Translations under genes and position numbers: made by a program
Source: the human T2T-CHM13v2.0 reference genome, Homo sapiens
Assembly (NCBI RefSeq): GCF_009914755.1
Contig: NC_060937.1
Reading direction: 5' to 3' (one strand)
Length of the DNA: 64,000 nucleotides
Notes under the pieces: model-generated
The model's database searches: none
What the model was told of the DNA's origin: nothing
What the model saw: the letters and a program-made list of their open reading frames with translations, nothing else
In this document: positions 45,144 through 54,872 of the stretch, piece after piece
How the letters are laid out: every line of letters begins with the position of its first letter
Numbering within the stretch: position 1 is the first letter of the stretch

Positions 45144-45862
45144 AAAAATTTATAATGGGCTGAGGAGTGCTTTACTTCCAACTATGTGGTCAATTTTGGA
45201 ATAAGTGCGATGTGGTGCTGAGAAGAACACTCCTCAGCAAATGTAAAAGAACATAAATTGTAACAAACTGTCTCTCAGACCACAGGGCAATCAAACTAGA
45301 ACTCCGGATTAAGTAACTCACTCGAAACCACTCAACTACATGGAAACTGCACAATCTGCTCCTGAATGAATTACTGGGTACATAACGAAATGAAGGCAGA
45401 AATAAAGATGTTCTTTGAAACCCATAAGAACAAAGACACAACATACCAGAATCTCTGGGACACATTCAAAGCAGTGTATAGAGGGAAAATTATAACACTA
45501 AATGCCAACAAGAGAAAGCAGGACAGATCTAAAATTGACACCCTAACATCACAATTAAAAGAACTAGAGAAGCAAGAGCAAACACATTCAAAAGCTAGCA
45601 GAAAGCAAGAAATAACTAAGATCAGAGCAGAACTGAAGGAGATAGAGACACAAAAAGCCATTCAAAAAAATCAATGAATCTGGGAGCTGGTTTTTTGAAA
45701 AGATCAACAAAATTGATAGACTAGCAAAACTAATAAAGAAGAAAAGAGAGAAGAATCAAATAGACGCAATAAAAAATGATAAAGGGGATATCACCACCGA
45801 TCCCACAGAAATACAAACTACCATCGGAGAATACTATAAACACCTCTAGGCAAATAAACTAG

Positions 45863-46141
<279 letters not shown>

Positions 46142-46155
46142 TAGATGCAGAATAG

Positions 46156-46557
<402 letters not shown>

Positions 46558-46583
46558 TGACAAGCAGTCTTATACATCAATAA

Positions 46584-46757
<174 letters not shown>

Positions 46758-46760
46758 TAG

Positions 46761-47381
<621 letters not shown>

Positions 47382-48025
47382 TAATTAAACTAAAGAGCTT
47401 CTGCACAGCAAAAGAAACTACCATTAGAGTGAACAGGCAACCTATAGAATGGGAGAAATTTTTGCAATCTGCTAATCTGACAAAGGGCTAATATCCAGAA
47501 TCTACAAAGAACTCAAACAAATTTACAAGAAAAAAACAAACAACCCCATCAAAAAGTGGGCAAAGAATATGAACAGACACTTCTCAAAAGAAGACATTGA
47601 TGCTGCCAACAGACACATGAAAACATGCTCATCATCACTGGCCATCAGAGAAATGCAAATCAAAACCACAGTGAGATACCATCTCACACCAGTTAGAATG
47701 GTGGTCATTAAAAAGTCAGGAAACAACAAGTGCTGGAGAGGATGTGGAGAAATAGGAACGCTTTTACATTGTTGGTGGGACTGTAAACTAGTTCAACCAT
47801 TGTGGAGGACAGTGTGGCGATTCCTCAAGGATCTAGAACTAGAAATACCATTTGACCCAGCCATCCCATTACTGGGTATATATCCAAAGGATTATAAATC
47901 ATGCTGCTATAAAGACACATGCAAATGTATGTTTACTGTGGCACTATTCACAATAGCAAAGACTTGGAACCAACCCAAATGTCCATCAATGATAGACTGG
48001 ATTAAGAAAATGTGGATTTTGGTCA

Positions 48026-48919
48026 CAAGATGGCCGAATAGGAACAGCTCCGGTCTACAGCTCCCAGCGTGAGCTACGCAGAAGACGGGTGATTTCTGCA
48101 TTTCCATCTGAGGTACCGGGTTCATCTCACTAGGGAGTGCCAGACAGTGGGCGCAGGCCAGTGGGTGCACGCACCGTGCGCGAGCCGAAGCAGGGCGAGG
48201 CATTGCCTCACCTGGGAAGCGCAAGGGGTCAGGGAGTTCCCTTTCTGAGTCAAAGAAAGGGGTGAGGGACACACCTGGAAAATCGGGTCACTCCCACCCG
48301 AATATTGCGTTTTTCAAACGGGCTTAAAAACGGCGCACCACGAGACTATATCCCACACCTGGCTCGGAGGGTCCTACGCCCATGGAATCTCGCTGATTGC
48401 TAGCACAGCAGTCTGAGATCAAACTGCAAGGCGGCAGCTAGGCTGGGGGAGGGGCGCCCGCCATTGCCCAGGCTTGCTTAGGTAAACAAAGCAGCAGGGA
48501 AGCTCGATCTGGGTGGAGCCCACCACAGTTCAAGGAGGCCTGCCTGACACTGTAGGCTCCATCTCTGGGGGCAGGGCACAGACAAACAAAAAGACAGCAG
48601 TAACCTCTGCAGACTTAAATGTCCCTGTCTGACAGCTTTGAAGAGAGCAGTGGTTCTCCCAGCGCGCAGCTGGAGATCTGAGAACCGGCAGACTGCCTCC
48701 TCAAGTGAGTCCCTGACTCCTGACCCCCGAGCAGCCTAACTGGGAGGCACCCCGCAGCAGGGGCACACTGACACCTCACAAGGCAGGGTATTCCAACAGA
48801 CCTGCAGCTGAGGGTCCTGTCTGTTAGAAGGAAAACTAACAAACAGAAAGGACATCCACACCGAAAACCCATCTGTACATCACCATCATCAAAGACCAAA
48901 AGTAGATAAAACCACAAAG
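48026..48919 (+). promoter_or_regulatory. L1 5' UTR internal promoter (CpG-rich, YY1 motif caagatggcc; antisense promoter region)
   Basis: Longest CpG-dense stretch in the window; length matches the short form lacking the 129-bp ZNF93-bound segment. Confidence 0.85.
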
Positions 48920-49936
48920 ATGGGGAAAAAACAGAACAGAAAAACTGGAAACTCTAAAACGCAGAGTGCCTCTCCTCCTCCAAAGGAACGCAGTTCCTCA
49001 CCAGCAACGGAACAAAGCTGGACAGAGAACGACTTTGACGAGCTGAGAGAAGAAGGCTTCAGATGATCAAATTACTCTGAGCTACGAGAGGACATTCAAA
49101 CCAAAGGCAAAGAAGTTGAAAACTTTGAAAAAAATTTAGAAGAATGTATAACTAGAATAACCAATACACAGAAGTGCTTAAAGGAGCTGATGGAGCTGAA
49201 AACCAAGGCTCGAGAACTACGTGAAGAATGCAGAAGCCTCAGGAGCCGATGCGATCAACTGGAAGAAAGGGTATCAGCAATGGAAGATGAAATGAATGAA
49301 ATGAAGCGAGAAGGGAAGTTTAGAGAAAAAAGAATAAAAAGAAATGAGCAAAGCCTCCAAGAAATATGGGACTATGTGAAAAGACCAAATCTACGTCTGA
49401 TTGGTGTACCTGAAAGTGATGGGGAGAATGGAACCAAGTTGGAAAACACTCTGCAGGATATTATCCAGGAGAACTTCCCCAATCTAGCAAGGCAGGCCAA
49501 CGTTCAGATTCAGGAAATACAGAGAACGCCACAAAGATACTCCTCAAGAAGAGCAACTCCAAGACACATAATTGTCAGATTCACCAAAGTTGAAATGAAG
49601 GAAAAAATGTTAAGGGCAGCCAGAGAGAAAGGTCGGGTTACCCTCAAAGGGAAGCCCATCAGACTAACAGCGGATCTCTCAGCAGAAACCCTACAAGCCA
49701 GAAGAGAGTGGGGGCCAATATTCAACATTCTTAAAGAAAAGAATTTTCAACCCAGAATTTCATATCCAGCCAAACTAAGCTTCATAAGTGAAGGAGAAAT
49801 AAAATACTTTACAGACAAGCAAATGCTGACCGATTTTGTCACCACCAGGCCTGCCCTAAAAGAGCTCCTGAAGGAAGCGCTAAACATGGAAAGGAACAAC
49901 CGGTACCAGCTGCTGCAAAATCATGCCAAAATGTAA
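48920..49936 (+). pseudogene. L1 ORF1p, inactivated by R49* (CGA>TGA at 49064-49066)
   Basis: ATG 48920 (MGKKQ), TAA 49934-49936, 1017 nt with one in-frame stop; 248-aa downstream ORF in track. Confidence 0.93.
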
Positions 49937-49999
49937 AGACCATCGAGACTAGGAAGAAACTGCGTCAACTAACGAGCAAAATCACCAGCTAACATCATA

Positions 50000-53824
<3,825 letters not shown>

Positions 53825-54072
53825 ACAATGAGATCACATGGACACAGGAAGGGGAATATCACACTCTGGGGACTGTTGTGGGGTGGGGGGAGGGGGGAGG
53901 GATAGCATTGGGAGATATACCTAATGCTAGATGACGAGTTAGTGGGTGCAGCGCACCAGCACGGCACATGTATACATATGTAACTAACCTGCACAATGTG
54001 CACATGTACCCTAAAACTTAAAGTATAATAAAAAAAAAAAAAAGAAAAGCAAAAGTTAAAAAAAAAAAAAAA

Positions 54073-54466
54073 GAAAAAGTATACATTTTGAAGAACTGAA
54101 AAACCATTGTAACCACACTGTGATGGTAAAGTCCTGTAAAATCGGAATTATTTATACTACAGACTATGCTGCCTATTGTATTGACAGCTGTGCATTATCC
54201 TAGAGTCTCTTTGTGTGAATATGGTTAACTTTACACATCTAAAAGATAATATATTTTTTAAAGAATATATAAAAAAAAGAGAAAAGTGTCATTGCCAACC
54301 TTCAATAATTATTGTAACTATATATTCCTACTAAGAAATTTTTCACTAAAACTTGAATTGTTTCATATTTATGAGCTTATTGATCCAGCCACCTGGAGTT
54401 CTATTACTACTTATAATAATGATTTATTATATTTTTAAGAAAAATAAATAGAGCCACTAAGACCGC
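54073..54466 (+). other. L1 3'-transduced unique sequence
   Basis: Non-L1 DNA between L1 poly(A) and a second poly(A) (from 54467), AATAAA at 54443-54448, inside the TSDs. Confidence 0.92.
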
Positions 54467-54872
54467 AAAAAAAAAAAAAAAAAGAAAATGTGGCACATAT
54501 ACACCATGGAATACTATGCAGCCATAAAAAATGAGTTCATGTCCTTTGTAGTGACATGGATGAAGCTGGAAACCATCATTCTCAGCAAACTATTGCAAGG
54601 ACAAAAAACAAAACACCGCATGTTCTCACTCATAGGTGGGAATTGAACAATGAGAACACTTGGACACAGGAAGGGGAACGTAACACACTGGGGCCTGTCG
54701 TGGGTTGGGGGGAGGGGAGAGGGATAGCATTAGGAGATATACCTAATGTAAATGATGAGTTAATGGGTGCAGCACACCAGCATGGCACATGTGTACATAT
54801 GTAACAAACCTGCATGTTGTGCACATGTACCCTAGAACTTAAAGTATAATAATAATAAAAAATTTATAATGG

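What the first reader, a model, noticed from the sequence alone, without database searches (positions are those of the whole stretch)
48016..48036. Non-L1 5' leader may preserve the source element's TSD
Seen: the usual G-rich first ~11 nt of L1 are replaced by 'attttggtca' before the YY1 motif caagatggcc. The hexamer attttg also ends the first stretch of transduced flank (aaaaagtatacattttg, 54074-54090), which is where the source element's 3' TSD should lie. Known: YY1 positions L1 initiation a fixed short distance upstream. Inference: the parent lacked its first bases, so transcription began inside its 5' TSD. This copy would then carry both 5' and 3' flank of its parent, predicting the parent junction ...aagtatacattttg-gtca-caagatggcc. 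A 6-bp match could be chance.
Basis: inference. Interest (0 to 1): 0.7.

Follow-up and report, generated by a model that had tools for sequence, protein, structure and literature searches.

The report
L1 copy recording two lost ancestors
This dead human LINE-1 copy carries, behind its tail, DNA from two other chromosomes (11 and 18) at spots where no LINE-1 sits in this genome, and its odd first ten bases are likely a leftover of the chromosome 11 ancestor's insertion site, a tidy but ordinary product of known LINE-1 behaviour.

Summary
Observation confirmed. A full-length, broken L1PA2 has 10 non-L1 bases (48016-48025) between its 12-bp TSD and the YY1 motif. The 3' trailer is composite: chr11 DNA (197 bp), an A tract, then chr18 DNA (189 bp). 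Neither source site holds an L1 in CHM13. The likely history is chr11 to chr18 to chr13, so the ATTTTG site is the grandparent, not the parent, and its junction cannot be read here. ATTTTG matches bases 13-18 of the chr11 site (chance 0.011-0.06; 0.20 under the loosest parse). An inverted match to the element's own TSD is about as likely by chance (0.024), and the last four bases, GTCA, stay unexplained. Controls favour inheritance. The 10-nt length is the mode of ordinary leaders, 5 of 24 selected copies are cut right at the YY1 motif, and a chr4 copy has an 8-nt leader/trailer match whose source site is also empty. Short 5' plus 3' transductions and concatenated transductions with lost sources are published. 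Verdict: reader partly right, about 0.6 for the chr11 origin; new member of a known kind.

The parts
48004..48015 (+). 5' copy of this insertion's 12-bp target site duplication, inside an older L1
   Evidence: longest shared suffix 12 bp; host L1 resumes in register
48016..48025 (+). 10-nt non-L1 leader; 48016-48021 equals bases 13-18 of the chr11 source site; 48022-48025 (GTCA) unexplained
48026..48036 (+). YY1-binding motif of the L1 5' UTR
   Evidence: motif and role as stated in PMC2912911 section 7
48026..54029 (+). Full-length L1PA2 body lacking the G-rich first bases; ORF1 (from 48920) has a stop at codon 49; ORF2 (from 50000) has a stop at codon 103 and further frame breaks
   Evidence: GAG triplet in 3' UTR; listed as full-length L1PA2 in PMC10879037 file 6 row 4162 (matched by gene, strand and length, not by liftover)
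54030..54043 (+). A tract 1 (14 A)
54044..54057 (+). 14-nt spacer between A tracts; likely the start of a still earlier ancestor's TSD (inferred; too short to map)
   Evidence: found behind an L1 3' end only here
54058..54072 (+). A tract 2 (15 A)
54073..54269 (+). 3' transduction 1, from chr11:27,228,340 onward (empty site in an intron of the GBBH/TauD-domain gene, BBOX1 by recall); 3 differences in 196 compared bases
54270..54278 (+). T plus 8 A: shrunken A tract between the two transductions
54279..54467 (+). 3' transduction 2, from chr18:65,495,654 onward (empty site); 3 differences in 189 bases; AATAAA at 54443-54448 and end at a CA about 19 nt later
54468..54481 (+). final A tract
54482..54493 (+). 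3' copy of this insertion's TSD
45159..48015 (+). 5' part of the older host L1 (91-94% to the inner copy; short inverted piece 45159-45227; about 245 bp internal gap)
54482..54851 (+). 3' end of the older host L1

Best explanation
This is a broken full-length L1PA2 whose tail carries chr11 and then chr18 DNA from two sites that hold no L1 in this genome, likely because it descends from an L1 at chr11 through one at chr18, and whose 10-base leader is likely the end of the chr11 ancestor's target site duplication copied when transcription began just upstream of the YY1 motif. Shown: the TSD, the leader, the two mapped segments and their order, A tracts between them, empty source sites, broken ORFs. 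Inferred: (1) an L1 with only about 4 bases before its YY1 motif sat at chr11:27,228,340 with an 18-bp TSD ending in ATTTTG; (2) YY1 placed the start 10 nt upstream, on the A of a CA inside that TSD, and read-through added 197 bp of flank; (3) this RNA inserted at chr18:65,495,654, which read through again (189 bp, AATAAA) and gave the chr13 copy; the first three bases ATT could equally come from the chr18 TSD; (4) both ancestors were polymorphic and are absent from this genome, probably lost from the human lineage, roughly 6-10 Myr ago at assumed rates. The serial-transduction part deserves about 0.9; the chr11 origin of the leader about 0.6.
For: A 393-bp trailer search gave exactly 3 places: self, chr11 (query 1-196, 98%) and chr18 (186-393, 96%). 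Both segments start right after an A tract at a G-A5/6 motif preceded by T in the source. This resembles an L1 endonuclease site (consensus recalled) and the TSD starts seen. There is no L1 3' end in the 1.5 kb before either site, and each 12-mer start occurs once in the ~20 kb fetched. The leader length of 10 equals the median and mode of 35 resolved leaders out of 40 young L1s (5 dropped as unresolved or mis-assigned). Among the 24 copies with a non-C base before the motif, 5 have the TSD abutting the motif, 4 including this one have wholly foreign 9-13 nt leaders, 12 are single substitutions and 3 are unresolved. So both the postulated ancestor type and the predicted product exist. Control copy chr4:84,017,717: 8 nt of its leader recur at the end of the TSD-like start of its 3' transduction (chance 0.0009), and that source site on chr7 is also empty. 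Published: a 10-nt 5' transduction matching the donor's upstream bases (PMC6425141, passages), and 5' extranucleotides of full-length L1 ascribed to upstream initiation (PMC2912911 section 7).
Against: The match is only 6 nt: p 0.011-0.061, and 0.20 with a two-part parse. The same ATTTT is the reverse complement of AAAAT in the element's own TSD (p 0.024). GTCA is not explained by chr11. It does match the chr18 site, but in the wrong order for nested inheritance. No donor, no sibling and no parent-daughter pair with an intact junction was found. None of the other foreign leaders matched the TSD of a copy cut at the motif. The chr11 segment ends without a canonical AATAAA. The chr4 control was picked after looking at about 64 elements.
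Confidence: 0.6

Rival explanations
1. The leader was inherited whole from an earlier ancestor that cannot be mapped (the one behind the 14-nt spacer or older), and the chr11 match is chance.
For: Foreign 9-13 nt leaders occur without any matching trailer (L161, L169, L197). The chance of a 6-mer match is 0.02-0.06. This reading also explains GTCA without extra steps.
Against: A longer-lived leader should have left relatives, but none was found. Of 32 near matches to the GTCA-YY1 pattern, the 30 inspected gave only this copy with this leader. The spacer ancestor's TSD would need about 24 bp to hold it.
Confidence: 0.2
2. The leader was made at this insertion's own 5' junction: the copy was cut at the YY1 motif and joined with fold-back-templated (ATTTT) and untemplated bases.
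For: AAAAT in the TSD and ATTTT in the leader form a 5-bp inverted repeat around a 4-nt loop (chance 0.024). Cuts right at the motif are real (5 of 24).
Against: It needs a rare cut and a 10-nt addition in the same event, and lands on the modal leader length by luck. The 5 copies cut at the motif carry 0-1 extra bases. I saw no such inverted match in the printed junctions of the other foreign leaders (by eye).
Confidence: 0.14
3. The trailer is not serial transduction but template switching between L1 RNA and two unrelated polyadenylated RNAs, so there never were donors at chr11 and chr18.
For: Both sites are empty. The chr11 piece is sense to its host gene and lacks a canonical poly(A) signal.
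Against: Both pieces start at an endonuclease-type G-A-run with the G kept, and each is preceded by an A tract. Empty source sites are common for transductions (PMC4862182 and PMC12593883 passages; chr7 control).
Confidence: 0.06

Closest known systems
L1 transduction family with short 5' plus 3' transductions (Salvador-Palomeque et al. 2019, PMC6425141; passages read)
   Same: Full-length L1 carrying 3' flank and a 10-18 nt 5' piece matching the bases directly upstream of a source; multi-generation family traced by tags.
   Different: There the elements are L1Hs-Ta with donors present and the 5' piece is added to the L1 start. Here it is L1PA2, the G-rich start is replaced, the match is to the grandparent and only 6 nt, and both donors are absent.
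5' extranucleotides of full-length L1 and YY1-directed heterogeneous initiation (Kojima 2010, PMC2912911 section 7 read, citing Athanikar 2004 and Lavie 2004, which were not held and are known only from that citation and recall)
   Same: Foreign bases between TSD and an intact YY1 motif, ascribed to initiation upstream of L1.
   Different: Here a candidate source of the bases can be named through the 3' tag.
Concatenated or nested transductions with unrecovered sources (SVA: PMC12593883 passages; bioRxiv 2020.12.16.423102 passages; L1 source loci without donor: PMC4862182 passages)
   Same: Several source loci in series on one element, separated by A tracts; short tags that are the source's TSD; sources lost or rare.
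   Different: The concatenated cases in the passages I read are SVAs polymorphic today. This is an older L1PA2, seen in 12 of 12 cell lines.

Membership tests
L1PA2 | GAG at the 3' UTR diagnostic triplet (ACA = Ta, ACG = pre-Ta, GAG = L1PA2 and older) | tested here: met
   Window 3' UTR shows GAG; key from PMC4866827 passage
L1PA2 | Short (about 900 bp) 5' UTR colinear with the youngest copies | tested here: met
   ORF1 ATG at 48920; 96-97% unbroken alignment with the youngest loci, while older copies break at position 767
L1PA2 | Repeat-library assignment | tested here: inconclusive
   No library here; PMC10879037 file 6 lists hg38 chr13:85123204-85129221:+ L1PA2 full-length near LINC00375; matched by gene, strand and length only
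L1 3' transduction (serial) | Non-L1 DNA between L1 tail and 3' TSD, followed by poly(A) | tested here: met
L1 3' transduction (serial) | Each segment maps to a unique other locus, separated by an A tract | tested here: met
   chr11 and chr18
L1 3' transduction (serial) | Source L1 directly upstream of each mapped locus | tested here: not met
   Both empty in CHM13; absence in one genome is tolerated in the literature but leaves the pedigree inferred
L1 3' transduction (serial) | Source L1 present in other human or ape genomes | not testable with these tools
   No relatives held (header); no rows for these CHM13 position prefixes in 3 supplement files of PMC12350158; no non-reference row labelled BBOX1 in PMC10879037 file 6, which was cut when stored
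Short L1 5' transduction | Extra bases lie between own 5' TSD and an intact YY1 motif | tested here: met
Short L1 5' transduction | Extra bases equal the sequence directly upstream of the source element | tested here: inconclusive
   6 of 10 match the chr11 site's TSD zone (p 0.011-0.06), 4 unexplained, donor absent

The most novel reading that the evidence does not exclude
The ten-base leader is a mirror image of the trailer: a nested record of three vanished ancestors (chr18, chr11 and the spacer site) from an L1PA2 lineage that had lost its G-rich start yet jumped at least twice more, and one of these donors survives in a chimpanzee, bonobo or gorilla genome. With 3 of 3 traced source sites empty, reading leaders and trailers together genome-wide would rebuild the pedigree of extinct, never-fixed L1 source elements of the hominine ancestor.
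Probability: 0.15. Interest if true: 0.55.

Novelty: new member of a known kind. Interest (0 to 1): 0.3.

Why it matters
It pins two extinct, once-active L1PA2 source elements to single bases (chr11:27,228,340 and chr18:65,495,654 in CHM13) and gives a base-level prediction for their junctions that ape assemblies can test at once. If the leader reading holds, it is genomic evidence that the G-rich first bases of L1 are dispensable for repeated germline retrotransposition and that the start site is set by distance from YY1. The mechanisms themselves are published, and the element is broken with no shown function.

Tried and rejected
Siblings: none found. The exact leader 21-mer has 1 hit. The GTCA-YY1 pattern with 1 mismatch has 32 hits, 30 inspected. 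The only other exact one (chr10) is an older L1, 88-94% identical, whose GTCA lies in flanking antisense L1 sequence. The spacer behind an L1 end has 1 hit. The chr11 18-mer has 4 hits; the chr4 and chr15 ones are unrelated contexts. ATTTTG within 16 nt of the motif has 79 hits, so the hexamer alone means little. Leader as decayed TSD extension: rejected, the host L1 continues with unrelated bases. Leader as direct-parent (chr18) flank: only a 3-nt prefix match. GTCA as tail of the spacer ancestor: 3 of 4 bases, needs a substitution; kept only as a weak lead. The whole 10-mer also occurs on the minus strand at window 23152 and about 6.4 kb upstream of the chr18 site; treated as chance. The hg38 row chr11:27219703 L1PA2 is not the donor: CHM13 27.21-27.23 Mb holds no full-length L1. 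Literature for this locus: a full-text search for three junction strings gave one paper on an unrelated subject, seen as a listing only. Searches showed no description of it in their listings. Szak 2003, Lavie 2004 and Athanikar 2004 were not held, and bioRxiv supplements are closed, so prior description is not excluded. The only supplement listed for Tang 2018 is a PDF that I did not read, so human-specific status is open.

Full report
1. Observation. The window reads a 12-bp TSD at 48004-48015, ten non-L1 bases (ATTTTGGTCA) at 48016-48025 and the YY1 motif from 48026. The TSD recurs at 54482-54493 and the older host L1 resumes in register, so the ten bases belong to the insertion. The element is an L1PA2. 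It has the GAG triplet (key from PMC4866827 passages) and a short 5' UTR colinear with the youngest copies. A supplement row lists a full-length L1PA2 at hg38 chr13:85,123,204-85,129,221 near LINC00375, seen in 12 of 12 cell lines (PMC10879037 file 6; matched by gene, strand and length). Both ORFs are broken.

2. The trailer. A DNA search with 54074-54466 returned three places: itself, chr11:27,228,341-27,228,536 for query 1-196 (98%) and chr18:65,495,634-65,495,841 for query 186-393 (96%). Alignment sets the anatomy: 14 A, a 14-nt spacer, 15 A, chr11 segment 54073-54269, T plus 8 A, chr18 segment 54279-54467 with AATAAA at 54443, A tract, TSD. Each segment begins at a G followed by an A run, preceded by T in the source, as many TSDs do and as the recalled endonuclease consensus predicts. 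Neither source has an L1 upstream. No L1 3' end aligns in the preceding 1.5 kb, the nearest L1 pieces on chr11 are older and kilobases away, and each site's first 12 bases occur once in the ~20 kb fetched. The chr11 site lies between two same-strand exons matching GBBH-like_N and TauD (gene name BBOX1 recalled). Since read-through DNA is added at the 3' end, the order implies chr11, then chr18, then chr13 (inference). The segments differ from their sources at 3 of 196 and 3 of 189 bases, 1.6% pooled (95% CI 0.6-3.4%), or 6.5-9.7 Myr at assumed rates of 1.2-0.8e-9 per site per year, with limits of 2.4-21 Myr.

3. The leader. ATTTTG equals bases 13-18 of the chr11 site, which would make an 18-bp TSD. 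The first base is the A of a CA in that site, 10 nt before the YY1 motif (CA as a favoured start is recalled). The chr18 site also contains CATT, so ATT may come from either site. Chance, from random 10-mers of the window: 0.011 for chr11 alone, 0.018 for either site, 0.061 at any offset, 0.20 if a chr18-plus-chr11 parse is allowed. Against: ATTTT is also the reverse complement of AAAAT in the own TSD (0.024). GTCA is unexplained. It occurs in the chr18 site, but nested inheritance would put chr18 bases first. It matches the spacer's end at 3 of 4 bases.

4. Controls in the same genome. One search found 1673 young L1 5' ends and listed 100; I read both ends of the first 40. 39 keep a GGAGC-like end, 1 has its TSD against the motif, and none has a wholly foreign leader. 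For the 35 with a usable TSD (3 unresolved and 2 mis-assigned dropped) the TSD-to-motif distance has median and mode 10. All 24 copies with a non-C base before an exact 33-nt core were then examined: 12 single substitutions, 5 cut at the motif with 0-1 extra bases, 4 with foreign leaders of 9-13 nt (including this one), and 3 unresolved. Thus the postulated ancestor type exists, and foreign leaders keep about the normal length whatever their sequence. One copy, chr4:84,017,717, repeats 8 leader bases at the end of the TSD-like start of its own 3' transduction (chance 0.0009; found after viewing about 64 elements). Its source on chr7:84,838,721 is again empty. No foreign leader matched the TSD of any cut copy, so no parent-daughter pair proves the step here.

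5. Siblings. None found. ATTTTG within 16 nt of the motif occurs 79 times genome-wide, so the hexamer carries weight only because it sits in the mapped ancestor's TSD zone.

6. Mechanism. Best reading (0.6): an L1 with about 4 bases left before its YY1 motif inserted at chr11. YY1-positioned initiation inside its TSD made a 10-nt foreign leader, and read-through added the chr11 tag. The daughter at chr18 read through again and produced the chr13 copy. Both ancestors never fixed, or are absent from this genome. Rivals: leader from an earlier unmappable ancestor (0.2), junction-made bases (0.14), template switching instead of serial transduction (0.06). The serial-transduction part alone deserves about 0.9.

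7. Known kinds. Short 5' transductions together with 3' tags are described for an L1Hs family, including a 10-nt case matching the donor's upstream bases (PMC6425141, passages). 5' extranucleotides before an intact YY1 motif are called frequent and ascribed to upstream initiation (PMC2912911, passages and section 7). Concatenated transductions, tags that are just the source's TSD, and lost sources are described for SVA (PMC12593883 passages; bioRxiv 2020.12.16.423102 passages), and donor-less source loci for primate L1 (PMC4862182 passages). PMC12350158 (passages; 3 supplement files searched) had no rows for these CHM13 position prefixes. I found no description of this locus in searches, but Szak 2003, Lavie 2004 and Athanikar 2004 were not held and bioRxiv supplements are closed.

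8. Verdict. Observation confirmed. New member of a known kind; interest 0.3.

Noticed in passing
L159/L179 (chr4:84,017,717 +) and L200:1501-1630 (chr7:84,838,721): Young full-length L1 with about 130 bp of 3' transduction from chr7; 8 nt of its extra 5' bases match the end of the source's likely TSD; the chr7 site is empty. A cleaner case of the same mechanism.
   Followed up: yes
L127, L162, L164, L165, L166: Five young L1s whose TSD abuts the YY1 motif (0-1 extra bases): the ancestor type that the leader model needs.
   Followed up: partly
L161, L169, L197, probably L167: Other copies with wholly foreign 9-13 nt leaders; L169 (chr13:47,685,841) has a Ta-type tail and its leader contains an endonuclease-like TT/AAG motif. 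L163 and L130 carry what look like whole parental TSDs before a normal start.
   Followed up: partly
L086/L106 and L119/L139: Both carry the AAGAATTGTA tag of the lineage progenitor in PMC6425141 Table 3; L086 has it on both sides and is probably that paper's Ref_Chr1_p31.1_a (not lifted over).
   Followed up: partly
window 48004-48015; L124, L076: The same target motif near the end of L1 ORF2 was used by this insertion and by L124, and a similar one by L076: a possible recurrent insertion site inside older L1s.
   Followed up: no
window 48016-48025 versus L002 and L003 sites: The leader is made of a chr11-matching 6-mer and a chr18-matching 4-mer in the reverse of the order that nested 5' transduction predicts; probably chance, unexplained.
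   Followed up: partly
window 45159-48015 and 54482-54851: Host L1 is 5'-truncated with a short inverted piece (45159-45227) and an internal gap of about 245 bp relative to the inner copy; an Alu-like stretch follows from about 54876.
   Followed up: no
L160, L173: Full-length young L1s inserted in or directly behind another L1 3' end.
   Followed up: no
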